Shown piece after piece: positions 10,684 to 62,749 of a DNA stretch of 64,000 bases. Both the position numbers and the translations under genes were made by a program. The stretch spans positions 1,341-65,340 of the forward strand of contig JAGLWU010000021.1 in NCBI GenBank assembly GCA_023133275.1. Reading direction: 5' to 3'. Under the pieces are notes generated by a model, which worked only from the letters and a program-made list of their open reading frames with translations, ran no database searches and had not been told where the DNA came from. The DNA is from Candidatus Moraniibacteriota bacterium (GTDB lineage Bacteria; Patescibacteriota; Minisyncoccia; Moranbacterales; GCA-2747515). Position 1 is the stretch's first letter. Each line of letters opens with the position of its first letter.

Positions 10684-10720
10684 GTAGGCACTCAGAAATC
10701 TAAGTGCCTACATTATTCTT
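10684..10720 (-). terminator. Rho-independent terminator overlapping the end of ORF 10700..11266
   Basis: On the minus strand: GTAGGCAC-ttagatttctga-GTGCCTAC then TTTTTTTATCC. Confidence 0.5.
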
Positions 10721-11722: not shown

Positions 11723-13843
11723 TCACCTCACAAAACACCCCTGCAAATTCCCACCACCCACATCACCAGCCCCAACAACATCATCCCCCAACATCAACAC
11801 ATACAATTTCAAAGTCCCAAAAGACCTCTCATCCACAATCATATGATTCACCAACATCTCATCATTAACATGCACCCCCGTCTTCTCCCGAACCAGCAAA
11901 TAAAAATTCCCACCCGAAACAATCTCTTTTTCAAAACCGCCCCGCTTTACATAACACAACAACCCCTCACCCTCACTTTTAGAATTAACCAAATAAAAAA
12001 TCGCCCGAGCATACCGATTATCACCCACCACAATTTTACCAACATCATTATTTCCGCTTTTATTTTCCGATTCCAAAATATAATCCGCCACATCCCGCAA
12101 CTGACTTAAAATAATTCTGTCCGACCTTTTTAAAACAAGATCCCGACTAGATTCAATATTTTCCGTTCTCGATAAATGCAATTCCGTAAAACCAATTTTA
12201 ATATTAAACAAATTTATCACTATAAAAATAATTGTTAATCCTATCGTAATAAATTTTCCAAATCTCCGAAAAACTTTTTCAATAAAATAAAAAACAGATC
12301 CCAGTAAAATCAAAAATGGCGGATACATAAAAAGAAAAAATCGTGGAGAAATTTGATAAGCTACCAAAATTAAAAACAAACCGCCCATCACTAACCACGG
12401 CAAAATTAAAAATATCGCCGAATGTTTTTTTCTGAACAAAGAGTTGCAATTCCTTGTTAAGTTTTTACAAAATTTCCTACTTCTTCTGAACAAGAGGTCA
12501 TGACCCCTTGTTGAAATTCTGAAATATTCCTTCACACGAGAGAATGAAAAGTTTTTTAAATAAATTCTCACAGCAAATAAAGTTCGCCGAAAAAATAATT
12601 TGATCGATTTTCTATCTCTGCGCAAACCACTTTTTTTATAAACAACATAAAAATTCCTTTTAAAAATATAAAAGAAAAAAGTCGCCAAAGAAATTAAAAA
12701 TAAAATTATTGCCAAAATTAAATAAAGTAATCTCTCCTTGCAAGTCTTATCACAAATCAAAGGAAAATAACCCTGTGTTTGTTTTTTAGTAATTAATAAA
12801 TCCCGACCATGCTGATCGCCCGTAAAAATCGTGAAGAAAAAAGTACTACTTTCTTGAAAAGCTCGAAAAGTTTTTTCCGCTAAATCATGTTTATCATTTT
12901 TATCTTCCGTAACTGAAGCAATTAAACCTTTCGTATTCTTCCCGCCAGTTTTGTACTCGTTAACAATGACTGGAAAAAATAAAAGGATAATTAAACTTAA
13001 TGAAATTAAAATCGTTTGCCAAGAAATTCGTATTTTTGAAAAGATAAAATAAATTATAAAAACCACAGGAAAACATAAAAACGCAATAAAATGAAGTTGT
13101 AATAAAATTGCTGTTGAAAAAATTGCGAGAATAAACCACCGAGATATTTTTTTATTTGCAAAAAATTTATTTACAAACCAATTCTTAAAATTTATTAAAA
13201 ATTTATTAAAAAAATTGTGCTTGCCGCACGGGCAAAATACCTTTTCACAATCGTTCACTGATTTTCCATCAGCTTTTTTAAAATTAAAAAATAGTTTTTG
13301 ATTGTAAAAACGTTTTGGCAAAATATCTTTACCTAAAAAATTTCCACACCGCAACAAAGAATACGCCGCCAACATTAACCAAAAAGGCATTGAATTTGGA
13401 TTCCATGCAAATCGCCCGTAAATAATTAAAAAATAAGAAAAAGATGTTATCGTGAAAAGTAAAAAACTAATTCTTCTAGAAAAAAATTGTCGTGCGAAAA
13501 AATAGGATAACGGAATTGTTAAAATTGAAAATAGTAAATCTGGAAATGCAACAGCAACTGGCAAAGAAGTATTTTGCCAAAACATATTTCTTGCAAAAAT
13601 CTTCGCAGAAAAAAATTGGAAGTAATAAAAAATAGGACCAAGTTGTAATTCTCGCCCTCGTGCTTGTGGACCGAGTAATGGCAAATCTCTCGTTCCATCG
13701 ATCGCATCTGAAATTATGAAAACGTCTCGTGCCTGATCCAATTCAAAATGCAACCAATCTGTAAAATGATAAGTTCGTAAAAATATTCCGACAATGAATA
13801 TCGCAATTGCTAAATATATTATTTTGTTTTTTGTGTTAAACAT
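11723..13843 (-). CDS. PMT/ArnT-type GT-C membrane glycosyltransferase, paralog 2. Carries in-frame repeat-element insertions.
   Basis: N-terminus FELDQARD...PLLGPQARG is paralogous to 2256..4220. At 706 aa it is longer than its paralogs. Two stretches match the intergenic repeat family. Bases 13219-13235 encode CPCGKHNFF, and 12431-12524 encode HDLLFRRSRKFCKNLTRNCNSLFRKKHS. Confidence 0.65.
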   Translation of the reverse strand: MFNTKNKIIYLAIAIFIVGIFLRTYHFTDWLHFELDQARDVFIISDAIDGTRDLPLLGPQARGRELQLGPIFYYFQFFSAKIFARNMFWQNTSLPVAVAFPDLLFSILTIPLSYFFARQFFSRRISFLLFTITSFSYFLIIYGRFAWNPNSMPFWLMLAAYSLLRCGNFLGKDILPKRFYNQKLFFNFKKADGKSVNDCEKVFCPCGKHNFFNKFLINFKNWFVNKFFANKKISRWFILAIFSTAILLQLHFIAFLCFPVVFIIYFIFSKIRISWQTILISLSLIILLFFPVIVNEYKTGGKNTKGLIASVTEDKNDKHDLAEKTFRAFQESSTFFFTIFTGDQHGRDLLITKKQTQGYFPLICDKTCKERLLYLILAIILFLISLATFFFYIFKRNFYVVYKKSGLRRDRKSIKLFFRRTLFAVRIYLKNFSFSRVKEYFRISTRGHDLLFRRSRKFCKNLTRNCNSLFRKKHSAIFLILPWLVMGGLFLILVAYQISPRFFLFMYPPFLILLGSVFYFIEKVFRRFGKFITIGLTIIFIVINLFNIKIGFTELHLSRTENIESSRDLVLKRSDRIILSQLRDVADYILESENKSGNNDVGKIVVGDNRYARAIFYLVNSKSEGEGLLCYVKRGGFEKEIVSGGNFYLLVREKTGVHVNDEMLVNHMIVDERSFGTLKLYVLMLGDDVVGAGDVGGGNLQGCFVR

Positions 13844-13887: not shown

Positions 13888-14619
13888 TCAAATTTTATAA
13901 CTCTCAGGAACACAAGAATTTATAAAGAGTTTCCCAAAAGAAGTTACTTTTATGTCACTATTTATAAAGACTCCTACTTGCGTTTTACCATCATCGCTAC
14001 TAATAATTTCCTGATTTCCATTTTGCCACACGCCTGCAATATTCAAACTATACAAGTGATCCATATAAATAAAAAAGTTCTCTGGAAATTGCAATTTATC
14101 AATGGGAAATTCATTTTTAATAATTTTTTTATTAAAAAACAAATGCTTATTATGATCAAACTCTGACTGTTGCCTTAATTTATATAATTGTTTCTTTTTC
14201 AAAAAATACAGGATTACAGCTTCATCATGAGATAATTGTTGTATAATTTTTGGAAATGCTGGATGAACTAATCCTTGTTTTGTTTTATCTACTGAATTAG
14301 CTAATAAATTTACAAACATATCACACAACAAAGTATTTTCATAAGAAAGTGCTAATCCTTCTAGTACTGGAACAACAATTTGAGGATGCCCCTTAATAAG
14401 ATTTTTTTCTTCTACTTTTTCTGCAATATTTTTCAAATATCTCTCCCACCTACTACGATAAGCTGCAACATATTCAACTGGTGCCAACAAAAAACGCCCA
14501 GCTTTTACAGTATTACCTAAAGCCTTCCCTATTTCCTTCATGGCAGGACTCAGTCCATCATCATAGATTTTTTCTACAGGAGCTTCTTCAAGTATTTTTT
14601 TAGTAATTTCTTCTTCCAT
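13888..14619 (-). CDS. Hypothetical soluble protein (weak resemblance to DUF4393/Abi-alpha-type helical proteins; unverified)
   Basis: 243 aa ORF between two GT39 paralogs. No TM and no catalytic motif recognised. Confidence 0.35.
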   Translation of the reverse strand: MEEEITKKILEEAPVEKIYDDGLSPAMKEIGKALGNTVKAGRFLLAPVEYVAAYRSRWERYLKNIAEKVEEKNLIKGHPQIVVPVLEGLALSYENTLLCDMFVNLLANSVDKTKQGLVHPAFPKIIQQLSHDEAVILYFLKKKQLYKLRQQSEFDHNKHLFFNKKIIKNEFPIDKLQFPENFFIYMDHLYSLNIAGVWQNGNQEIISSDDGKTQVGVFINSDIKVTSFGKLFINSCVPESYKI

Positions 14620-14625
14620 AAAAAT

Positions 14626-16488
14626 TTATTTAAAAATAAACTTCAAATCCCGCAACGAACATTTTGCCCTTTCCTCTATTCCCAATTCTAACATAAAACA
14701 CCTATTTACACTTACTTCATAACCATTATTATTCAACCTATTTTTTTCAACAAAGTTATCCTTATTTTTCAAATCTAACTCAATCAAAATCACAGTTCCA
14801 AAATCAATCTCCTCAACAATTTCAAATTTATCTTTTAAATCTTTCGGCAATTTCACTTTATTTTTAAATTTATCAGCCTCTCGCAAAAGAAAATATAAAC
14901 CCTTTCTATCCAAATTTTCAACATTAATTTCAGTAACTGGCAATTCCTTTTCAATTTGCAAAAGATATAAAAGTGAACGAATATGATACGGGGAAGAATG
15001 TACATAGATATTCGAAAATTCATTTTCATCAAATCTATTTTCAATCACATCAGTAATTTTTTTCCACTGCTTATTTGTAACTAAATAATACGGCTCCAAA
15101 ATAAATTCATTTATTTCAACATCTTTTTTATCATCATTATCAATCATTTTGAGCCAACTGAAAGATTGCCAAAAATTCAAAATTATTAAAAACAACATTC
15201 CCACAAAAATTATCTTTTTACCATATTTTGGAAAATACTTTTCAAATAAAATTATCGCAAAACCCAATAAAATAAACGGTACAAATAAAACAACCAGAAA
15301 ATAACGCGAATCAACATCCAGCGACAACGGATAAAATAAAAATAAATAAACTACCTGCCAAATTAACATTAATAAAACAAAACGATTTTTCTGAATATTA
15401 ATTTTAGAAAAATTATCTTTTAATTTAGAGAAATAATTTCTCGCAAAAAAGTAAAAACTTATCATTAAAAAGATAAAAATTAAAATTGCTTTAAAAATAT
15501 TATTTTGTAAAACGCTGTTAGAAAAATTCTTTGTCATCAAATCATTTAAACCATCACTACTCTCAACTCTAATCGGATCACTGATAAAATTTTTCGACAC
15601 TAAAATATTTGTATAAAATCTGGTGAAATTGTAAACATTCATGAAAGATTTTTTTGGCATCGTCGCTTGTTCATCTGAAGCATTTCTTCTGATAGTTGCC
15701 TTTAGAAATTCCTGTGTATTTTCTCCTTTGGTTAAAATGTCATTACAAATCAGAGGAAAAAATAAAAAAATACTCACTGATCCAAAAATCGCAAAATGTT
15801 TTAAAGAAATTTTTACTCTAGTAATTATAAAATATAGAAATAATATTATTGGCAATCCGATCAGTGCGACTGTGTGAAGTTGCATCGCCCAAGCTGTTGA
15901 AAAAGCGAATGGAATAATCCAAAAAGTTTTATTGTCTAAGTTTTTTAGAAGATTTTTAATTTTTAGGAACAAAAAATTATGACTTTTTATTATTTTAATT
16001 TTTTTATTTTCTGCTCGAGAATAACGTAAAAGAGAGTAGAAAGATAATACTAAAAAAAACGGAATTGAATTTGGATTCCAAGAAAAATATGTATATTCCA
16101 CTACAAAAAGTGAAACTGAAAATAAGGCAATGAGATATAAAGAAATTCTTTTTGAAAAAAATTCTTTGAGTAAAAAGTAAAATGCTGGGATTGTTAAAAT
16201 TGAAAAAATCAATTCTGGTAAAACCATTGAAAAAACACTCAAACCGAAAATTTTACTACTGATTAAAGCTGGTAAATAAAATAATGATCCTAAACGAAAA
16301 AATGTTCCGCCTGCTTTTGGACCGACTAGTGGAAATTCGCCGATGCCGTTAGTTAAAACTTTATCGATGATTCTGTAATCTCGAGCTTGATCGATTTCGA
16401 AAAAGATGTTGTTGCTAAAATTATAGGTTCGTAAAAATATTCCTACGCAACAAATTGCTATTAAAATTATTATTGTTTTATTTTTCAT
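14626..16488 (-). CDS. PMT/ArnT-type GT-C membrane glycosyltransferase, paralog 3
   Basis: N-terminus FEIDQARDYRI...PLVGPKAGG is paralogous to the other two. Polytopic. C-terminal soluble domain. Confidence 0.65.
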   Translation of the reverse strand: MKNKTIIILIAICCVGIFLRTYNFSNNIFFEIDQARDYRIIDKVLTNGIGEFPLVGPKAGGTFFRLGSLFYLPALISSKIFGLSVFSMVLPELIFSILTIPAFYFLLKEFFSKRISLYLIALFSVSLFVVEYTYFSWNPNSIPFFLVLSFYSLLRYSRAENKKIKIIKSHNFLFLKIKNLLKNLDNKTFWIIPFAFSTAWAMQLHTVALIGLPIILFLYFIITRVKISLKHFAIFGSVSIFLFFPLICNDILTKGENTQEFLKATIRRNASDEQATMPKKSFMNVYNFTRFYTNILVSKNFISDPIRVESSDGLNDLMTKNFSNSVLQNNIFKAILIFIFLMISFYFFARNYFSKLKDNFSKINIQKNRFVLLMLIWQVVYLFLFYPLSLDVDSRYFLVVLFVPFILLGFAIILFEKYFPKYGKKIIFVGMLFLIILNFWQSFSWLKMIDNDDKKDVEINEFILEPYYLVTNKQWKKITDVIENRFDENEFSNIYVHSSPYHIRSLLYLLQIEKELPVTEINVENLDRKGLYFLLREADKFKNKVKLPKDLKDKFEIVEEIDFGTVILIELDLKNKDNFVEKNRLNNNGYEVSVNRCFMLELGIEERAKCSLRDLKFIFK

Positions 16489-17113
16489 TCAATTCCCTTT
16501 CTATTTTGTGTTTCTCTACATCTTCACATTTTAACATGTCAACAATATCACCATATTCATAACAATTATTTTTATCTTTTGCATAATTAAGTTCATCATA
16601 ATAATCTTCAACAAGCTGAAAAGTTTTTGGATCAGCTCCTTCTATTATGCTAGTTACAGCGTAAACGTTATTTTTATCTATTGAGTAAAAATAATTCAAA
16701 GATTCAAAAGTGTTTGAATCTGCATTTTTTATAATTTTATCTTCATGGTAAACAAAATTTTTATCTATTGAATAATTATATTTTAAAGGTTTAAAAGTCT
16801 TTGCATCAGCTTCTTTTATTTTTTGCATAAAATAAGAATCTAATTTATTATAGTCTCTTACATAAACATTGCTTTTATCAACTGCATAATATTTATGTAT
16901 TTTCCTAAAAGTCAAAGAATCAGCTCCTTCTACTATTTTTTCATTATAATAAACACTACCATTTTTATACCCTACAAATTCTCTTCCAATAGAATAAGTA
17001 ATATTGTTTTTTATATTAATAATTTCTCTCAAATTATAATAAGCCAGTAAAATAAAAATAAGCCAAACTACAATTAAAACTATATATTTATACTTTTTTA
17101 AAAATTTTTTCAT
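16478..17113 (-). CDS. DKNYY-family repeat protein, N-terminally membrane anchored
   Basis: N-terminal TM. Four repeats of the form GADxxTF...(Y/L)xxDKNxVY: DKSNVYVRD, DKNFVYHED, DKNNVYAVT, DKNNCYEYG. Confidence 0.7.
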   Translation of the reverse strand: MKKFLKKYKYIVLIVVWLIFILLAYYNLREIINIKNNITYSIGREFVGYKNGSVYYNEKIVEGADSLTFRKIHKYYAVDKSNVYVRDYNKLDSYFMQKIKEADAKTFKPLKYNYSIDKNFVYHEDKIIKNADSNTFESLNYFYSIDKNNVYAVTSIIEGADPKTFQLVEDYYDELNYAKDKNNCYEYGDIVDMLKCEDVEKHKIERELNEK

Positions 17114-32117: not shown

Positions 32118-32150
32118 GAAGAATTAAAACTTTTTTGTAAAAAATAAAAA

Positions 32151-32325
32151 GTGCTCGCCGCACGGGCTTTTCTGAACAAGAGATTACAACTCCTTGTTGA
32201 AATTCTAAAATATTTTTGTTATCTAAATTTTCCGTTATTTAAGTTTACTGTCATTCTGAACGGATTTAATTCTTCACTACATAATTTTTATTTCATAAAA
32301 ATTACTTCATTCAGAATGACAAATT
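32151..32325. repeat. Mosaic palindromic intergenic repeat element (modules A+B2+C/C' inverted pair), copy R2
   Basis: GTGCTCGCCGCACGGGC at 32151-32167. TTCTGAACAAGAGATTACAACTCCTTGTTGAAATTCTAAAA. CTGTCATTCTGAACGG (32249) and its inverse CATTCAGAATGACA (32308). Confidence 0.8.
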
Positions 32326-36924: not shown

Positions 36925-37008
36925 ACAATATCAATTAACTTATTTTCTAATTCGTAGAGACAAGGCATGCCTTGTCTCTACAGTCAAAAAACAATTCGAA
37001 TTACCAAT

Positions 37009-39964: not shown

Positions 39965-40125
39965 GTGCTCGCCGCACGGACTTTTCACCATTTAACTTTT
40001 TTCGAAATTCTGAAACATTTCCGTAATATCTCTTGTCATTCAAATTACCTGTCATTCTGAACGTAGTAAATTTATTGCAGATAAATTTATGTAGTGAAGA
40101 ATCCCCCACAGAGAATCATAAAACT
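39965..40125. repeat. Mosaic repeat element (modules A+C+E), copy R4
   Basis: GTGCTCGCCGCACGGAC. CCTGTCATTCTGAACG. TTATGTAGTGAAGAATCCCCCACAGAGAATCATAAAAC (module E, also at 55949-55985). Confidence 0.75.
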
Positions 40126-40148
40126 TTAAAATTAAACAAAAAGTGAAT

Positions 40149-45400: not shown

Positions 45401-45429
45401 ATTTTATTTTATAAATTAAAAATTAAATT

Positions 45430-45640
45430 GTGCTCGCCGCACGGGCTTTTCTGAACAAGGGGTCATAACCCCTTGTTTAACCCCTACAAAATTATACGAC
45501 CCCCCGACCTGTCATTCCGAAAAATATATTTTCTTTCAGAGCGTAGTGATGAACTAGAAAATAATTTATCCGGAATCTATACTTTAAGATTAAAGAAAAT
45601 TTAAAATACAATACACTTCCTAAATTCCGGATAATTTTTT
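45430..45640. repeat. Mosaic repeat element (modules A+B1+C+D), copy R5
   Basis: GTGCTCGCCGCACGGGC. TTCTGAACAAGGGGTCATAACCCCTTGTTTAACC. CCTGTCATTCCGAAAAATA. ATTTATCCGGAATCTATACTTTAAGATTAAAGAAAATTTAAA. ATTCCGGATAA is the inverse of TTATCCGGAAT. Confidence 0.8.
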
Positions 45641-55828: not shown

Positions 55829-55985
55829 GTGCTCGCCGCACGGGCTTTTCTGAAACAATGGATCATGACCCCTTGTTGAAATTCTAAAAATTTTCTGTCA
55901 TTTTTACTGTCATTCTGAACGGAATAATTTTTATAAAATAAAAATTATGTAGTGAAAAATCCCCCACAGAACACCACGAAACATT
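55829..55985. repeat. Mosaic repeat element (modules A+B1+C+E), copy R6
   Basis: GTGCTCGCCGCACGGGC. TTCTGAAACAATGGATCATGACCCCTTGTTGAAATTCTAAAA. TGTCATTCTGAACGG. TTATGTAGTGAAAAATCCCCCACAGAACACCACGAAAC. Confidence 0.8.
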
Positions 55986-56167: not shown

Positions 56168-57127
56168 TTAATTTTTAACATCCAAATAAGCCCTCCTAAC
56201 CGCCAAATTAATTTTTGTCGGTCGAAATTTAACATCCAAATAATTCTTAAGCTTTCGCAAAAATAAATAAATATTCAAATAAATTTTCCAAAAACCCTTA
56301 CCGTGTTTACGAAAAAATAAAATACCTGATAAAACTAACCAATAAATTTTCTGCGACTGATTTTCCTCGCTTTGCTCTTGATGATAAACTTTTGCACTCG
56401 GAACAATCAAATTTTTCAATTCAGCTTTTTTCACTCGCAAAGATAAATCTGCATCCTCATAATAAAGAAAAAAAAATTCATCAAATAATCCAACTTTCTC
56501 AAAAACTTTTTTACTAATCAACATCGCACAACCTGTTACATATTCTGTTTCTTCTACATCTGTGTAGGGAACGGTTTGAAACCGTTCCCTACCAAACACG
56601 ACTTGAAACCATTTCCTACCAAACAATGATATACAATCAAAATGTTCCGCCCTCATTTTCCACCAATTTATTTTTCCACCACAGAACCAAATATTTTTAT
56701 ATTTTAAATCTGAATAAATCACAGGACTTACTAATCCAATTTCACTTTCATCTTTAATAGAATCAATCAATTTTGAAATTGTGTTTTTTCGCACCAATGC
56801 ATCATTGTTCAAAAGAAAAACATAATCTGCGCTATTTTCAAAAGCAAATTTTATACCAACATTATTTCCCGCTCCGAATCCGAGATTTTTTTTGTTTTTA
56901 ATAAAATAAATTTTTGAAAAGTTTTTTTCACTTGAACAATGGGTTGCAACCCATTGTTCAGCTAGATTTAAAGAATTGTCAGTAGAATTATTATCCACTA
57001 AAATTATTTCTAAATTTTGATAATTTGAATCAACTACACTTTTAATAGTTTTTAGTAAATCTGTTCCGCCATTGTAATTTAGAATTATGACAAATATTTT
57101 TGGTTTTTTTGGAATTGTACTTGACAT
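56168..57127 (-). CDS. GT2-family glycosyltransferase carrying an in-frame palindrome/tandem-repeat insert
   Basis: KIFVIILNYNGGTDLLKTIKSVVDSNYQNLEIILVDNNSTDNS (GT2 N-terminus). DxD YYEDAD. N-terminus MSSTIPKKPK shared with 61255..62427. Confidence 0.8.
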   Translation of the reverse strand: MSSTIPKKPKIFVIILNYNGGTDLLKTIKSVVDSNYQNLEIILVDNNSTDNSLNLAEQWVATHCSSEKNFSKIYFIKNKKNLGFGAGNNVGIKFAFENSADYVFLLNNDALVRKNTISKLIDSIKDESEIGLVSPVIYSDLKYKNIWFCGGKINWWKMRAEHFDCISLFGRKWFQVVFGRERFQTVPYTDVEETEYVTGCAMLISKKVFEKVGLFDEFFFLYYEDADLSLRVKKAELKNLIVPSAKVYHQEQSEENQSQKIYWLVLSGILFFRKHGKGFWKIYLNIYLFLRKLKNYLDVKFRPTKINLAVRRAYLDVKN

Positions 57128-58148: not shown

Positions 58149-60770
58149 CTATTTCTTATCTTTCTTATATCTAAAAATGCTAGCAATAAAAGCTGTTGCC
58201 ACGAACATTGATGAATAAGTCCCTGCAATCACACCAACTAACATTGCAATCGCAAAACTCTGCAATGACTCACCACCGAACAAAATAACTGATACCAACA
58301 CAACAACCACCGTAAGCGAAGTATTCATTGATCTCGCCAAAGATTCATTCAACGAACGATTCAACAACTTCTCAAATTTTCCAGTCTCTCGTGTACGAAT
58401 AACATTTTCCCGAATACGATCATAAACCACAATCGTATCATTCACAGAATAACCTAAAATTGTCAGCAAAGCCGCAACAAATGGAATTCCAATTTCAATA
58501 TTGTAAAAATAACCCAAAAATGCAAATACTCCCAACACAATAATTATATCATGAGTCAACGCCAATACCGCTCCAATACCATAATTCCAAGATGAAACAG
58601 GAAAAGAAACTTTACGAAAAGCTATAGCAATGTAAATCAGAATAGCTATCACCGAAAGAATAATCGCTTTGAACGCCCCGCTTTTTAATTGTTCAGAAAT
58701 AGTCGCTCCGATAAAATCAGTTCGTAATTGCTCAGCCTGAGGATCGATTTCTCTCACTGCCGTTAAAACTCTTTGATTAAATTCTTCACTCGCTTGTTTG
58801 TATCGAATAATAATGTGATTATTATCACTCTCTTGCAAAGTAAAACTTTCATTGCAACCATCTTCACCTATGATTTGACAAACTTTTTCCGTATCTGGCA
58901 TTCCAATACCATCTGAAATTTTAAACTCAGTCAAAGTTCCACCAACAAAATCAATTCCTAATTTTAAGCCGAAATTTGAAAGTGCAAAAATACTTATTCC
59001 AATCAAACCAGCTGAAAAAATGTAAGTAAACTTTCTCTTATTAATAATTTGCAAAAACTTTTTTTCTTTAGCATTTTCAATTTCAACCTTTTTCTTAAAA
59101 CCAAAAATTAACCAAGTATTATTTTCTAACCAATCTCGAGAAATAAATTTAACAATAATTTTCACTAAAACAATCGCCGTGAACATTGAAATCAACACAC
59201 CAATAATCAAAATTAAAGCAAAGCCTTTCACAAAACCAGCGCCGATCATCATCAAGATGAAAGATGTAATAATCGTAGAATAATTACCATCACGAATAGA
59301 TGACCACGCACGTTCAAAACCTTCGTTCACTGAATATTTCAAAGATTTTCCTTTTTTCAATTCTTCCTTGATTCTTTCAAAAATGAGAATATTTGCATCC
59401 ACCGCCATACCAACGGATAAAATAAGTCCCGCAATTCCTGCTAAAGTTAAAGTAATTGCCATTCCTTGAGGCATCGTTCCTGAAATTTTAAAAATTGAAA
59501 CAATGGTCGTTGCATAAATCATCAAAGCTACTGCCGCCACAACACCAAATACTCGATAATAAAAAATCATGTAAATCATCGTCAAAATCAAACCGATCAA
59601 TCCAGCTTTCAGTCCCATAGCCAAGGATTCCATTCCCAATGATGCTCCAATACTCTGCTGTGAAACTAATTTAATTGGCACTGGCAATGCACCCTCATTC
59701 ATTCTTTTCACTAAATTTTTTGCCTCTTCAACCGTAAAATTTCCACTAATCACCGCTTGACCTGTTGTAATTTCATCGTTGACAACTGGTGCACTTATTA
59801 CTTCATTATCAAGAAAAATAGCTACCGTTTTTTCTAAATTTCGTTTTGTAATTTCTGCAAAAAGTTTTGTACCCTCATCATTAAATTCTAAACTAACACT
59901 TGGAGTACCTAATCCAACTCCGCCACCAGAAAAACTAACATCCGCTCGCTCCAAGTGTTTTCCATCCAAATCAGTCGCTTTATATTTTTCTGGAACTTTT
60001 TTAAAAAAATCTAAAGAATATAAAATTTTTGCTTTAATTTTTTTTTCTTCTCCCTCACCTTGAGTCTCTAATTTCTTAACAAGCAAATAACTTTCGTCTG
60101 TTTCAAGTATTCCATTGTACACAGAACCATTATTTAAATCATCTGAAAAAATAACATCATCAATAGAACTTGATAATTGTCCTTTTTCAAAAAATTGCAA
60201 ATCCTCATCAGAAATATTTAAACCAATCTTTGTATTTTCTTCATTGTAAATATCATCAAAATTCTCACCATTATTAATTCTATCCAAAACTGCTTGAGCA
60301 TTCTTTTTTACAAATTGCTCATTCACAGAAACATAAATTTTCTTTTCTTCCTCCAATTCTTCCTCAGTTTTTTCCTCTCTAAATTGTAAAAATGGAGTTT
60401 TATCAATCACATTTTTCACATCTGCAACATCCTCCGCTCCAGGAAATTCTACAATAAGAAAATTCTGATCACCACGTTTTGCATGCTGAACAACTGGCTC
60501 ACCAACACCATAAGCATTTACTCGCCGCTCAACAACCGCTTGCACAGAATCAATCGCTTCACCTTTTTTATCATCAGGAACTTGCGACAAATCCATTTCA
60601 TATTCAAGGTGTAATCCTCCCTGTAAATCAAGTCCCAAATTAATTTGAAATTTATCTAAACTCTCTTGAGCTTTCGCGGGTAAGTATGGTATTTTCGGCA
60701 CTGCAATTCCGCCCACCAATATTGCGAAAAGTACCACTAAAATAAACTTTTGTCTAATTTTCTTATTCAT
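58149..60770 (-). CDS. secDF: Protein translocase subunit SecDF (fused)
   Basis: SecD N-terminus (LGLDLQGGLHLEYEMD). Large periplasmic domain. Two 6-TM bundles. SecF start region GIDFVGGTLTEF. 873 aa. Confidence 0.9.
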   Translation of the reverse strand: MNKKIRQKFILVVLFAILVGGIAVPKIPYLPAKAQESLDKFQINLGLDLQGGLHLEYEMDLSQVPDDKKGEAIDSVQAVVERRVNAYGVGEPVVQHAKRGDQNFLIVEFPGAEDVADVKNVIDKTPFLQFREEKTEEELEEEKKIYVSVNEQFVKKNAQAVLDRINNGENFDDIYNEENTKIGLNISDEDLQFFEKGQLSSSIDDVIFSDDLNNGSVYNGILETDESYLLVKKLETQGEGEEKKIKAKILYSLDFFKKVPEKYKATDLDGKHLERADVSFSGGGVGLGTPSVSLEFNDEGTKLFAEITKRNLEKTVAIFLDNEVISAPVVNDEITTGQAVISGNFTVEEAKNLVKRMNEGALPVPIKLVSQQSIGASLGMESLAMGLKAGLIGLILTMIYMIFYYRVFGVVAAVALMIYATTIVSIFKISGTMPQGMAITLTLAGIAGLILSVGMAVDANILIFERIKEELKKGKSLKYSVNEGFERAWSSIRDGNYSTIITSFILMMIGAGFVKGFALILIIGVLISMFTAIVLVKIIVKFISRDWLENNTWLIFGFKKKVEIENAKEKKFLQIINKRKFTYIFSAGLIGISIFALSNFGLKLGIDFVGGTLTEFKISDGIGMPDTEKVCQIIGEDGCNESFTLQESDNNHIIIRYKQASEEFNQRVLTAVREIDPQAEQLRTDFIGATISEQLKSGAFKAIILSVIAILIYIAIAFRKVSFPVSSWNYGIGAVLALTHDIIIVLGVFAFLGYFYNIEIGIPFVAALLTILGYSVNDTIVVYDRIRENVIRTRETGKFEKLLNRSLNESLARSMNTSLTVVVVLVSVILFGGESLQSFAIAMLVGVIAGTYSSMFVATAFIASIFRYKKDKK

Positions 60771-60955
60771 ATTGTTTGTAATTTATTAAATTTCTTTGAA
60801 AAAAATTCTGCTTTATCATAAAACATTTTCGCAAACTATCTTTTGTAATTTTAACTAAGATGAATTTAAAAATATTTATCACACGATAAAAACAAAACTC
60901 GATAATTTCAAGCTTTTTTTATTCTACTATAAAAACTTAAGATTGTCATATTTTG

Positions 60956-61262
60956 TGCTCGCCGCACGGGCTTTTCAACAAAAGGTCATGGTCCCTTGTT
61001 GAAATTCTAAAACATTTTTGTTATCAAAATTTTAGGTTTGCCACTGGCAAACCCCTACAATTTTTTATCATTTAAGTTTCTTGTCATTCTAAACGGATTT
61101 ATTTTTTCTTTAGAAAAAATAAAGGAATGAAGATTCCCTCACGAAAAATCATTAAACTTTAAATTTACTAAAAGTATCAGAAAAACTTATCTAGATTCTT
61201 CACTTCATAAATTTTTTTACAAAAAATTTATTTCGTTCAGAATGACAGGAAATTTTAAAATT
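60956..61262. repeat. Mosaic repeat element (modules A+B1+F+C/C' inverted pair), copy R8
   Basis: GTGCTCGCCGCACGGGC. TTTTCAACAAAAGGTCATGGTCCCTTGTTGAAATTCTAAAA. GGTTTGCCACTGGCAAACC. TGTCATTCTAAACGG (61092) and inverse CGTTCAGAATGACAGG (61237). Confidence 0.8.
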
Positions 61263-62427
61263 TAATCTTCTCCTCCACAAACTCCAAAATTCTATCTTTA
61301 AAAACATCTTTATCAAACTTCTCCGCAGATTTTTTAATAATATTTTTATCATAAAAATTCTCATTATCCAAAAATCGTCGCACACCATCCGCCAAAACCT
61401 CAACCGTCGGAGCATTAAAAAACTCTCCCGTAACACCTTCCTGAACAATCTCCCTCGCTCCACCTTTCCGCAAAGCAATCACTGGCAATCTAGCATTCAA
61501 CGCCTCCACGCACACAATTCCAAAATCATCCTCAGACGGAAAAATAAACGCCCGAGAATTATTTAAAATTTTCTGTTTTACCTTTTCATCCACCCAACCT
61601 AAAATTTGAATATTTTTACCAGCAATTTTTTCTAAATGTTTTCTCTCCTCACCATCACCAATCACAATCAACGGCAAATTTAATTTATTAAAAGCTTTCA
61701 CAGTCAACACCACATTTTTATAAGTAGAAAGCCGAGAGATAATCATGAAAGGTTTTTTTGAGTTTTTTCCGCATCCTCCCTTTTCTGAACAAGGGGTCAT
61801 GACCCCTTGTTCATCAAAATAATTTTCTACAAATTCAACTGGTGGATAGATAATTTCTGAATCACGTCGATAATATTTAGAAATTCTCGCTTGAGTGTAT
61901 TTTGAATTTGCAATTAAAAAATCTGGTCGCTTACTCGCCTGTGCATCCCAAATCCGCAAATAACTTAAAATTTGTCGCACAATAAAATTACTTTTAAAAT
62001 TTTTATTTCGCTTTAGATATTTTTCATTTTCATCCCAAATAAAACGCATTGGCGAATGAATGTAAGCGATGTGTTTCGTGTCAACTCGAGTTACAATTCC
62101 CTTACTCCACGCTCCCGAACTGGAAATCACCAAATCAAAATCTCGCAAATTGTAAGTTTCCACTGCCGAAGCGTAAAAAGGTAAAAGCCACCGATGATGT
62201 TTTCGAATAAACTTTGGAAATTTTTGTAAAAAAGAAGTATGGATTTTTTTGTCTTCAAACATTTTCTTCATGTTTTTTTCGTCATAAAGCAAAGTGTAAA
62301 TCGGTGCTTCGGGAAATATTTCGCAAAGTGTTTCTAATACTTTTTCCGCCCCTCCTTGATAAATTAAAAAATCATGAACAAGAGCAATTTTTAAGTTTTT
62401 AGTTTTTTTTGGATTTGTACTTGACAT
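61255..62427 (-). CDS. GT4-family (glycosyl transferase group 1) glycosyltransferase with in-frame B1-repeat insertion
   Basis: Start at MSSTNPKKTKNLKIALVHDF (internal to the longer ORF). GT4 C-domain (AFIFPSEDDFGIVCVEAL). Bases 61779-61813 match repeat module B1 and encode EQGVMTPCSEKGGCG. Confidence 0.75.
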   Translation of the reverse strand: MSSTNPKKTKNLKIALVHDFLIYQGGAEKVLETLCEIFPEAPIYTLLYDEKNMKKMFEDKKIHTSFLQKFPKFIRKHHRWLLPFYASAVETYNLRDFDLVISSSGAWSKGIVTRVDTKHIAYIHSPMRFIWDENEKYLKRNKNFKSNFIVRQILSYLRIWDAQASKRPDFLIANSKYTQARISKYYRRDSEIIYPPVEFVENYFDEQGVMTPCSEKGGCGKNSKKPFMIISRLSTYKNVVLTVKAFNKLNLPLIVIGDGEERKHLEKIAGKNIQILGWVDEKVKQKILNNSRAFIFPSEDDFGIVCVEALNARLPVIALRKGGAREIVQEGVTGEFFNAPTVEVLADGVRRFLDNENFYDKNIIKKSAEKFDKDVFKDRILEFVEEKIKF

Positions 62428-62446
62428 AATAATAATATAAAATTCA
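62401..62446 (+). promoter_or_regulatory. Promoter cassette copy e (TTGACA + (AAT)3 + ATAAAA), overlapping the divergent GT4 start codon
   Basis: agtttttttttggatttgtacTTGACAtaataataatataaaattc. Confidence 0.55.
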
Positions 62447-62512
62447 ATATTAGCTAACTCCTCACAAAATTGAGGAAAATTGTTCATTTAAAGAAAGAGG
62501 GAGATATAAAAA

Positions 62513-62749
62513 ATGGAATTATTAAAAGAAACTATAACTAATACCTATTGGGAATCAGGAAAAAAGGGATTTATCGCTTATTTGTTCACATCTTTCAGCA
62601 TTATATTTCCGATTGTAATATGGTTAATTTCTTCTGAAATTTCTTCTGCAGAATCCTGTGGTATAGCGGGAATATCACTTGGCATTGGTTTGCTTTTATC
62701 CGCAACAATTATAGAGCAAAATATGTACAAAAAAGCGAAAGCTGACTGA
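62513..62749 (+). CDS. Small 2-TM membrane protein (cassette-driven ORF e)
   Basis: 78 aa. GAGGGAG RBS. Terminator GGCTATCTT-cctgc-AAGATAGCC + GTTTTTATTTTT at 62797-62831. Confidence 0.5.
   Translation: MELLKETITNTYWESGKKGFIAYLFTSFSIIFPIVIWLISSEISSAESCGIAGISLGIGLLLSATIIEQNMYKKAKAD

What the first reader, a model, noticed from the sequence alone, without database searches (positions are those of the whole stretch)
61779..61813. B1 palindromic repeat inserted in frame in a GT4 glycosyltransferase
CCTTTTCTGAACAAGGGGTCATGACCCCTTGTTCA is the same 12+12 perfect palindrome (AACAAGGGGTCA / TGACCCCTTGTT) found in intergenic elements R5, R6 and R8. It lies inside the GT4 gene and encodes EQGVMTPCSEKGGCG between the N- and C-terminal Rossmann domains. 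This is a second independent in-frame insertion of the same element family.
Basis: seen in the sequence. Interest (0 to 1): 0.75.

Follow-up and report, generated by a model that had tools for sequence, protein, structure and literature searches.

The report
Tiny palindromic repeat inside glycosyltransferase hinge
A 28-base perfect palindrome from a family of tiny REP-like repeats found in many bacterial phyla sits in frame in the flexible hinge of a sugar-transferase gene of a Moranbacteria (CPR) genome, and sister genomes carry other repeat modules at the same hinge, so these normally extragenic repeats colonise this coding sequence again and again.

Summary
TGAACAAGGGGTCA|TGACCCCTTGTTCA (61786-61813) is a perfect 14+14 palindrome. 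It is read in frame as EQGVMTPCS in the hinge between the two Rossmann halves of a GT4 glycosyltransferase (Candidatus Moranbacteria MAG). The hinge is the only internal low-confidence segment of an otherwise confident structure model.

The peptide is a lineage-specific indel. Of 120 orthologues, only three carry it, and each of those also carries the palindromic DNA.

Eight close orthologues hold four different repeat modules at this same site, and sister genomes hold different modules (98-100% bootstrap). The gene itself is under strong purifying selection (dN/dS about 0.1).

Two more genes in the window carry in-frame copies: a GT2 gene (an exact 10-codon insertion) and a GT39 gene.

The 24-nt core is not lineage-specific. 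Near-identical copies, without shared flanks, occur in more than 150 loci from over 10 phyla and in viral contigs. Most are intergenic.

A sister 28-bp palindrome in the window flanks a RayT transposase gene elsewhere, so the class is REP-like. No RayT was found for this palindrome itself.

Best reading: a REP-like nano-repeat tolerated in a permissive linker, the same phenomenon as Rickettsia palindromic elements. How it moves is inferred, not shown.

The parts
61786..61813 (.). B palindrome, perfect 14+14 (TGAACAAGGGGTCA|TGACCCCTTGTTCA). Read on the - strand as (D)EQGVMTPCS.
61769..61785 (+). CCGCATCCTCCCTTTTC, a diverged remnant of module A. Intergenic copies read CCGCACGGGCTTTTC directly left of B. 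On the - strand it encodes EKGGCG.
   Evidence: The homology to A is my reading of the alignment.
61753..61836 (-). Hypervariable interdomain linker of the GT4 protein (residues 198-225 of the 390-aa product). Residues 204-223 have pLDDT below 50.
61255..62427 (-). GT4 (GT-B fold) glycosyltransferase gene, 390 aa. An upstream in-frame ATG lies at 62487.
12489..12512 (.). B copy (11/12 paired) in frame in the GT39/PMT_2 gene 11723..13843(-). Read as TRGHDLLF.
12435..12458 (.). Degenerate B-type copy (10/12 paired) in the same GT39 gene, 54 nt from the previous copy.
56933..56960 (.). B2 variant, perfect 14+14 (TGAACAATGGGTTG|CAACCCATTGTTCA), in frame in the GT2 gene 56168..57127(-). It is an exact 10-codon insertion, EQWVATHCSS.
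45454..45477 (.). Intergenic B copy (11/12 paired), directly right of module A.
55854..55877 (.). Intergenic B copy (10/12 paired), right of module A.
32175..32198 (.). Intergenic degenerate B copy (8/12 paired), right of module A.
60977..61000 (.). Intergenic degenerate B copy (8/12 paired), right of module A, in the spacer just downstream of the GT4 gene.
45428..45453 (+). Module A (TTGTGCTCGCCGCACGGGCTTTTC..), the usual left neighbour of B. Other copies next to B are at 32149, 55827 and 60953. There are 9 copies in the window.
   Evidence: family D1

Best explanation
The palindrome is one copy of a family of very small (24-28 bp) perfect-palindrome repeats of the REP type. In this Moranbacteria genome it usually sits next to a second module (A) in mosaic intergenic elements. 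One copy, together with about 17 nt of module A, now occupies the stretch that encodes the hinge between the two Rossmann halves of a GT4 glycosyltransferase.

It persists because this hinge tolerates almost any sequence. The insert keeps the reading frame and is read in a stop-free frame. The resulting 15-20 residues form a disordered surface loop with no role of their own.

Shown here:
- membership of a repeat family;
- in-frame position in the interdomain linker;
- the segment is a lineage-specific indel;
- different repeat modules have replaced one another at this site in sister genomes;
- the rest of the gene is under strong purifying selection;
- equivalent in-frame copies occur in two other genes;
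- the core sequence occurs in many phyla;
- a sister 28-bp palindrome is linked to a RayT gene.

Inferred, not shown, is the way the element arrived. One possibility is hairpin-dependent single-strand cut-and-paste by a RayT/IS200-type HUH tyrosine transposase acting in trans. The other is copying-in by gene conversion or recombination from another copy. Also inferred: the perfect pairing may be kept by arm-to-arm templated correction of the palindrome.
For: Family membership and statistics.

Frame and host gene. The insert coincides with the only internal low-confidence segment, residues 204-223, in a model with pLDDT 84 and pTM 0.84.

Indel status: linker length varies from 15 to 57 aa, and the B peptide occurs only where the B DNA is present.

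Turnover at the site. Eight orthologues (75-87% aa identity) carry B+A (window), B+B2+A (L001), B (L007), module E (L002, L005, L006) or module X (L003, L004). E also occurs in window intergenic DNA at 61035 and 26772, and X recurs downstream of its own gene. The gene tree pairs win(B) with L003(X) at 98% bootstrap and L002(E) with L004(X) at 100%, with 0% support for grouping by linker type.

The gene is functional: dN/dS is 0.07-0.13.

Other in-frame copies. In GT2, EQWVATHCSS is an exact 10-residue gap in 13 homologues. At a second GT2 site the window carries palindrome F where L002 carries B. GT39 carries two B-type copies that its 68%-identical orthologue lacks.

Distribution across phyla. 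The loci share no flanks. My calculation gives about 0.3 chance hits in 596 Gb. Further copies: 35 viral stretches and 51 metagenome loci. Only 13-17% of copies lie in ORFs of at least 200-300 codons, against 58-74% of random positions.

REP class. Five palindromes in the window have the same 28-29 bp full-palindrome layout, and three of them start with GTAG and end with CTAC. One of these, G (window 36954-36981), flanks a RayT-family gene on both sides in L223/L237.
Against: No RayT or other HUH transposase was found next to any B copy, or among 20 small ORFs of the window.

In this genome B lacks the GTAG tetranucleotide typical of REPs.

No target-site duplication, and no clean filled/empty pair, exists for the GT4 site, because every close orthologue has some occupant.

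The two genic copies (GT4, GT2) are the only perfectly paired ones, while the intergenic copies pair 8-11/12. The B copies of win, L001 and L007 are 26/28 identical, although dS between these genes is 0.7-1.2. Simple neutral decay after a single old insertion cannot explain this. It requires recent re-insertion, gene conversion, or selection on the hairpin.

The linkers of two distant orthologues had no extra copies within 21 kb.
Confidence: 0.65

Rival explanations
1. The hairpin is kept in the linker because it does something in cis. It might pause the ribosome between the two domain-coding halves to help co-translational folding. It might be an RNA processing or stability site. Or it might be a DNA site for recombination or phase variation. 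On this view the repeat modules are recruited hairpin cassettes, not passengers.
For: The genic copies are the only perfectly paired ones in the window. The B copies at this site in three orthologues are far better conserved than synonymous sites. The adjoining A remnant has diverged while B has not. Every occupant of the close orthologues' linkers contains a hairpin: B, the 8-bp stem of E, and X. The mRNA around the site folds at -24.8 kcal/mol, z = -4.9. B and B2 differ by paired changes that keep pairing.
Against: Sister genomes hold unrelated sequences at the site. Some orthologues have linkers of only 15-17 aa. The same palindromes are mostly intergenic, in many phyla and in phage-like contigs. 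There is no terminator-like tail. Perfect pairing and paired changes can also arise without selection, through templated correction between the arms of a palindrome. That is established quasi-palindrome mutagenesis and rests on my own knowledge.
Confidence: 0.15
2. The pattern reflects allele shuffling, not repeated insertion. Either an ancestral composite linker (B, E, X together) lost different parts in each lineage, or whole linker alleles move between related Moranbacteria strains by homologous recombination.
For: Linker type is incongruent with the gene tree. X and E share their 3' part, CCCTACG..GCAATGACG. X is 94.7% identical between L003 and L004, while the surrounding genes are 87% identical with dS 0.52.
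Against: No orthologue has a composite with all modules. In L002, E has the orientation opposite to that expected from the intergenic A-B-C-E order. The same modules are dispersed elsewhere in these genomes, and B is also inserted in unrelated genes. This rival concerns the history of the site, not what the sequence is.
Confidence: 0.12
3. Assembly or annotation artefact, or a dead gene. On this view a repeat-induced chimeric join, or a pseudogene whose frame stays open by luck.
For: Palindromic repeats can mislead assemblers. The source is a MAG.
Against: Independent assemblies from other samples (L001, L007) show B at the same place and in frame. Synteny is conserved. dN/dS is 0.07-0.13 on both sides of the linker. 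All invariant GT4 residues are present, and the model is confident.
Confidence: 0.03

Closest known systems
Rickettsia palindromic elements (RPE)
   Same: Palindromic repeats that are inserted in frame into unrelated protein-coding genes of a small-genome bacterium and translated as extra surface segments. Several families exist, and many copies are also intergenic (review PMC10969869).
   Different: RPEs are about 100-150 bp and encode a conserved peptide of 30-50 aa. They are confined to Rickettsia. Here the unit is 24-28 bp (10-15 codons). There is no sequence relation to RPEs. The core is shared across many phyla, and one linker site is reused by different modules.
REP / REPIN elements mobilised by RayT (RAYT) transposases; BIME mosaics of E. 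coli
   Same: Short dispersed palindromes that can form a hairpin, mostly extragenic and combined with other modules in mosaics. Sister palindromes in the window begin with GTAG. One of them (G) flanks a RayT-family gene in L223.
   Different: Classical REPs are imperfect, species-specific and extragenic by definition (own knowledge). B is a perfect palindrome, lacks GTAG in this genome, and is nearly identical in many phyla. Half of its window copies are inside genes. No cognate RayT was found.
Small dispersed repeats (SDR) of cyanobacteria (Elhai et al. 2008, cited in PMC3116915)
   Same: Mobile-looking repeats of only 21-27 nt with no coding capacity and an unknown means of movement (own knowledge of that paper).
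   Different: The paper is not in the held library, so the sequences were not compared. To my knowledge SDRs are described in cyanobacteria, nested in other repeats, and not as in-frame protein inserts.
Intragenic MITEs (ERIC, QMITE1, BOX) giving in-frame fusions
   Same: Non-autonomous repeats that are occasionally found inside ORFs and read through (PMC10969869).
   Different: MITEs are 50-500 bp with terminal inverted repeats around an internal region, and they have target-site duplications. Here the whole element is the inverted repeat, and no duplication is seen.

Membership tests
GT4 glycosyltransferase (host gene) | N-terminal Glyco_transf_4 and C-terminal Glycos_transf_1 domains above the Pfam cut-offs | tested here: met
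   37.2 bits against a cut-off of 28.5, and 94.4 against 26.4
GT4 glycosyltransferase (host gene) | GT-B fold: two Rossmann-like halves joined by a linker | tested here: met
   Model pLDDT 84, pTM 0.84. Best PDB matches are BshA, MshA, PimA, HepE and the GT4 enzyme BA1558, E down to 1e-16.
REP / RayT system | Short (about 20-40 bp) palindrome able to form a stable hairpin | tested here: met
   28 bp, 12-bp stem in the fold, -12.4 kcal/mol as DNA, z = -5.4
REP / RayT system | Dispersed, multi-copy, predominantly extragenic | tested here: inconclusive
   There are 8 copies in 64 kb, of which 4 are inside genes. Across phyla only 13-17% lie in long ORFs, against 58-74% of random positions. The family is mostly extragenic overall but unusually genic in this window.
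REP / RayT system | Conserved GTAG-type tetranucleotide at the 5' end | tested here: not met
   B here starts TGAAC. Smithella copies are often preceded by (G)TAG. The sister palindromes F, G and H do start with GTAG.
REP / RayT system | A cognate RayT (Y1/HUH) gene flanked by the same palindrome | tested here: not met
   None was found next to B in 1.75 Mb of held loci or in the window. It is met for sister palindrome G (L223). The whole source genome could not be searched.
Rickettsia palindromic elements | In-frame insertion into ORFs, translated as an extra segment at a permissive site | tested here: met
Rickettsia palindromic elements | Element of about 100-150 bp encoding a conserved family peptide; Rickettsia lineage | tested here: not met
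   The unit is 28 bp (30-45 nt inserted), and the host is Moranbacteria.
MITE | Terminal inverted repeats around an internal segment, with a target-site duplication | tested here: not met
   There is no internal segment. No duplication is visible at the GT4, GT2 or GT39 sites.
Intrinsic terminator | GC-rich hairpin followed by a T/U run | tested here: not met
   0 terminator-like sites in 60700-62600
Known RNA families (Rfam) | Match to a curated covariance model | tested here: not met
   No gathering-level hit in the window. Around the site there are only chance-level hits.
Cyanobacterial small dispersed repeats (SDR) | Sequence identity to SDR1-8; nesting inside other repeats | not tested
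   The paper is not held.

The most novel reading that the evidence does not exclude
B, F and G would be members of a set of fixed 28-bp palindromes ('nano-REPs') that circulate horizontally among bacteria of more than ten phyla and their phages. They would be written into DNA, coding DNA included, by a hairpin-specific mechanism that prefers sites already holding a hairpin. A protein linker could then act as a landing pad where hairpin cassettes are exchanged. That would be an undescribed, ultra-small class of mobile DNA that generates linker diversity in CPR proteins.
Probability: 0.25. Interest if true: 0.8.

Novelty: new variant of a known kind. Interest (0 to 1): 0.6.

Why it matters
REPs are, by name, extragenic. 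In this small CPR genome, 28-bp palindromes of that class are translated inside at least three glycosyltransferase genes within 64 kb. One hinge has been re-occupied by different modules in sister genomes.

If this is general, such repeats are a steady source of linker and loop variation in CPR proteins. They would also be a source of spurious shared peptides ([25 protein letters not shown] and the like) that can mislead homology searches and gene calling.

The near-identity of the core in distant phyla raises a testable question. What enzyme or process maintains and spreads a 24-28 bp palindrome? Candidates are a broadly transferred RayT, or templated self-correction of the palindrome.

Tried and rejected
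- Rfam, at gathering thresholds and permissively: nothing.
- Literature searches for the sequence itself, for CPR plus palindromic in-frame insertions, and for GTAG..CTAC palindromes: nothing relevant. The Elhai 2008 paper is not held.
- Curated phage and plasmid collections: no exact copy.
- Metagenome scan with the exact 28-mer: 0 hits. The 24-mer gave 51.
- Clustering of all ORFs near 117 pan-bacterial copies: no recurrent neighbour and no transposase.
- RayT searches, by phmmer with E. coli RayT and by a family HMM, against all held loci: two clear RayT-type ORFs, neither flanked by B. A third, weak hit (L199) lacks an HUH motif and is not flanked by B. A related-loci scan of viral contigs found no B-flanked RayT.
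- Test of whether the linker DNA of distant orthologues is repeated nearby (L161, L162): no extra copies within 21 kb. That their linkers derive from repeats therefore rests only on the look of the peptides and on my own recognition of them.
- Alignment of the intergenic spacer next to the gene with its L001 counterpart, to find clean module gains and losses: the spacers are largely non-homologous.
- Rejected readings: internal terminator, chance palindrome, assembly artefact and pseudogene.
Full report
OBSERVATION. The palindrome AACAAGGGGTCA/TGACCCCTTGTT (61788-61811) extends to a perfect 14+14 palindrome, TGAACAAGGGGTCA|TGACCCCTTGTTCA (61786-61813). With up to 3 mismatches the 24-mer occurs 4 times in the window, against 0 in 100 shuffles. 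A slightly degenerate pattern gives 6 hits, and two more degenerate copies appear in the repeat families. The other copies carry 1-2 or more mismatches, so this one is not simply 'the same perfect palindrome'. The copy at 12489 is inside an ORF rather than intergenic. As single-stranded DNA the 28-mer folds at -12.4 kcal/mol (z = -5.4). The surrounding 76 nt of mRNA fold at -24.8 kcal/mol (z = -4.9).

HOST GENE. The palindrome lies in ORF 61255..62487(-). From the ATG at 62427 the product is 390 aa, 100% identical to a protein that NCBI names a glycosyltransferase of a Candidatus Moranbacteria MAG. Pfam finds Glyco_transf_4 (residues 45-217 of the 410-aa ORF) and Glycos_transf_1 (244-381), both above their cut-offs. 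An AlphaFold model built on 23 orthologues is confident (pLDDT 84.3, pTM 0.84). Its only internal segment below pLDDT 50 is residues 204-223, FDEQGVMTPCSEKGGCGKNS, which is the insert. The best matches of the model among solved structures are GT-B/GT4 enzymes: BshA, MshA, PimA, HepE and BA1558. Outside the linker the gene is under strong purifying selection, with dN/dS 0.07-0.13 against seven orthologues. No terminator-like site lies in or near the gene.

THE SEGMENT IS A LINEAGE-SPECIFIC INDEL, AND MORE. In an alignment of 23 orthologues the stretch between ...IYPPV and KPF/KYF is the one hypervariable region. A pattern delimited the linker in 89 of the 120 orthologues, and there it is 15-57 aa long. 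In the rest, including the eight closest, the pattern found no anchor. The peptide EQ[GW]V..[PH]CS occurs only in P0001 (window), P0003 and P0008.

I fetched the DNA of the seven closest orthologues (75-87% aa identity, conserved synteny) and read their linkers:
- Window: B plus a diverged piece of module A. The genic sequence is ...CCGCATCCTCCCTTTTC|TGAACAAGG..., where intergenic copies read ...CCGCACGGGCTTTTC|TGAACAAGG...
- L001: two palindromes. One is B with a single mismatch. The other is a perfect variant, B2 (GAACAATGGGTTGCAACCCATTGTTC).
- L007: B with two mismatches.
- L002, L005 and L006: a different hairpin module, E (GGTTTGCCATTGGCAAACCCCTAC). E also occurs in window intergenic DNA at 61035 and 26772.
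- L003 and L004: a third module, X (..GAGATTGCCACGTCTCTC..CCTCGCAATGACG). A second copy of X lies just downstream of the gene in L003.

A gene tree made without the linker pairs win(B) with L003(X) at 98% bootstrap and L002(E) with L004(X) at 100%. Grouping by linker type has 0% support. The occupant of this hinge has therefore been exchanged repeatedly.

CONSERVATION PUZZLE. The B copies of win, L001 and L007 are 26/28 identical, although dS between these genes is 0.72 and 1.21. By my Jukes-Cantor calculation, neutral sites would be about 54% and 40% identical at those distances. X is 94.7% identical between L003 and L004, at dS 0.52. In the window the two perfectly paired copies are the genic ones (GT4, GT2), while the intergenic copies pair only 8-11 of 12 positions. 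A single old insertion followed by neutral decay is therefore excluded. What remains is recent re-insertion, gene conversion from other copies, templated arm-to-arm correction of the palindrome, or selection on the hairpin.

OTHER GENES.
- GT2 gene, 56168..57127(-) (Pfam). It carries B2 at 56933-56960. EQWVATHCSS is an exact 10-residue gap in 13 homologues, including one that is 65% identical, and is shared only with the L002 orthologue. At a second loop of the same gene the window has another 29-bp palindrome, F (GTAGGGAACGGTTT.g.AAACCGTTCCCTAC, 56564-56592), where L002 has B (EQGVMTPCS).
- The 706-aa ORF 11723..13843(-). This is a GT39/PMT_2 protein, about 70 aa longer than its orthologues. 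One loop holds module A in frame (EKVFCPCGKHNFF), as in some orthologues but not all. Another loop holds two B-type copies that are absent from the 68%-identical orthologue L160. The stretch between them is read in a shifted frame.
In total, four of the eight B-type copies in the window are genic.

THE FAMILY IS NOT LINEAGE-SPECIFIC. They come from Trueperaceae, Smithella/Syntrophaceae, Ignavibacteria, Kapaibacteria, Chloroherpetonaceae, Leptospirales, Spirochaetota, Hyphomicrobiales, KSB1, Calditrichaeota, Thioploca, Gastranaerophilales and Moraniibacteriota. My calculation gives about 0.3 chance hits in 596 Gb. The flanks are unrelated.
- The dominant form is AACAAGGGGTTGCAACCCCTTGTT (127 of 154 non-redundant copies). 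It is usually extended to GAAC...GTTC, and often to AGAAC...GTTCT.
- The main centre variants (TGCA, CATG, TATA) are all self-complementary, and the half-changed intermediates are rare.
- The TTGCAA form has no stop codon in any of the six frames. The TCATGA form of this window is closed in one frame of three. Both statements follow from reading the sequence directly.
- Copies are mostly intergenic: 13-17% lie in ORFs of at least 200-300 codons, against 58-74% of random positions. 14% abut the stop codon of an ORF of at least 100 codons, against 3% of controls.
- The family also occurs in 35 viral-contig stretches, for example between structural genes of a Smithella prophage-like contig, and in 51 metagenome loci with GC 0.30-0.57.
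- It is absent from curated phage and plasmid collections and from Rfam.

WHAT CLASS OF ELEMENT. The window holds 16 strong hairpins, against 1-4 in shuffles. Five of them are full palindromes of 28-29 bp: B, B2, F, G (GTAGAGACAAGGCATGCCTTGTCTCTAC, 36954-36981) and H. F and G also occur verbatim in unrelated viral contigs.

I searched all ORFs of the 1.75 Mb of held loci with E. coli RayT and then with a family HMM. This found two clear RayT-type genes and one weak hit.
- The gene in L223/L237. NCBIfam REP_Tyr_transpos gives E = 3e-12, below the cut-off. Its homologues are named 'REP element-mobilizing transposase RayT' by JGI. It is flanked by the G palindrome upstream, directly after its stop codon, and again 280 nt further on. 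This is the defining arrangement of a REP/RayT pair.
- The gene in L112. NCBIfam gives 109.5 bits, above the cut-off of 80. It is flanked by a different palindrome, with B 340 nt away.
- The weak hit in L199 lacks an HUH motif and is not flanked by B.
No RayT was found next to B itself, among 20 small ORFs of the window, or among the proteins neighbouring 117 B copies. B thus belongs by architecture and by company to the REP class. Two defining features, GTAG and a cognate RayT, were tested and not met.

MECHANISM. The best-supported account is a passenger model. A REP-like nano-repeat, here with part of its usual neighbour A, entered the one place in the gene where almost any frame-preserving, stop-free sequence is tolerated, or replaced the previous occupant there. 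It is translated as a disordered loop. The means of movement is inferred: RayT-type single-strand cut-and-paste, or gene conversion or recombination from other copies. The main rival is that the hairpin is selected in cis, as a translational pause between domains or an RNA or DNA site. The unexpectedly good preservation of genic copies gives that rival some weight. The diversity of occupants, the short linkers of some orthologues, and the mainly intergenic, multi-phylum distribution argue against it.

COMPARISON AND NOVELTY. Functionally this is the phenomenon described for Rickettsia palindromic elements (PMC10969869), but with an element five times smaller and unrelated in sequence, in a CPR bacterium, and with reuse of a single site by different modules. 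It is not a member of the RPE, MITE or terminator classes. It resembles REPs and the cyanobacterial small dispersed repeats. I found no paper in the held library that mentions the sequence, or in-frame palindromic repeats in CPR. I rate it a new variant of a known kind, with interest 0.6. The more novel reading is a horizontally circulating set of fixed 28-bp palindromes with a hairpin-targeted insertion mechanism. The evidence does not exclude it, and I give it a probability of about 0.25.

Noticed in passing
window 56933-56960 and 56564-56592 (GT2 gene 56168..57127, - strand): Two in-frame 28-29 bp palindromes in one GT2 gene. B2 is an exact 10-codon insertion, EQWVATHCSS, absent from 13 homologues. 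Palindrome F (GTAGGGAACGGTTT.g.AAACCGTTCCCTAC) sits where the L002 orthologue carries B instead.
   Followed up: yes
window 12395-12679 and 13215-13242 (GT39/PMT_2 gene 11723..13843, - strand): This 706-aa ORF is about 70 aa longer than its orthologues. Module A is read in frame (EKVFCPCGKHNFF). Two B-type palindromes, 54 nt apart, are absent from the 68%-identical orthologue. The stretch between them is read in a frame shifted relative to the orthologue, whose frame would hit TAG/TAA here.
   Followed up: partly
window 36954-36981; L223 12792-13841: The perfect 28-bp palindrome GTAGAGACAAGGCATGCCTTGTCTCTAC in a window spacer is identical to the repeat that flanks a RayT-family transposase gene in an unrelated viral-database contig. 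It also occurs verbatim in 15 viral-contig stretches.
   Followed up: partly
window 10684-10711: Another GTAG...CTAC palindrome (GTAGGCACTCAGAaaTCTAAGTGCCTAC) in a spacer.
   Followed up: no
window 12435-61811 (all eight B-type copies): The two perfectly paired copies are the ones inside genes (GT4, GT2). The four intergenic copies pair only 8-11 of 12 positions. The sample is small, but this is the opposite of what simple decay of genic passengers would give.
   Followed up: partly
window 32234-32321, 40035-40127, 55893-55985, 61067-61104, 61195-61258: Another repeat module (..TGTCATTCTGAACG.. AT-rich hairpin ..GTAGTGAAGAATC..) occurs in both orientations in the same mosaic spacers. Fragments of it are visible next to B copies in other phyla (for example L014, L111).
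   Followed up: no
Linkers of 120 GT4 orthologues (proteins P0009-P0120): Many linkers read like translated generic bacterial repeats: HCHSERSEESR, VILSEVKQSEESR, CHSGLDPESR..ILKQVQDDK, PLLPLGEGARRADE, LIRPSGTFSRGEKG, VERGTWNVE, SKFKIQNSK. This suggests the hinge collects repeats throughout Moranbacteria. Two tested loci showed no extra copies within 21 kb.
   Followed up: partly
L084 2180-2821: A 1372-aa ORF of a Kapaibacterium MAG contains tandem in-frame units built from half-palindromes (LNKGLQMSD x3, then NKGLQPLV). L101 shows similar 24-nt tandem arrays of half-sites.
   Followed up: no
L171, L173, L174, L181, L185, L191, L197, L198, L202, L204, L210, L213: One groundwater metagenome (Hainich H41) has many contigs of GC about 0.55 that carry the TCATGA form as GAGAAC...GTTCTC. 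Several copies are inside long ORFs, read as TRGHDPLF or EQGVMTPCS.
   Followed up: no
window 16619-16792: An 87-bp tandem duplication (71% identity) next to the start of a DKNYY-family ORF (16478..17113).
   Followed up: no
window 13888-14619: An Abi_alpha (abortive infection) family gene lies directly next to the GT39 gene.
   Followed up: no
window 60771-61254 vs L001 2984-3600: The spacer between the GT4 gene and secDF is a mosaic of modules A-B-C-E-D in the window. It is almost entirely non-homologous in the 81%-identical (protein level) orthologous locus, so spacer content turns over very quickly.
   Followed up: partly
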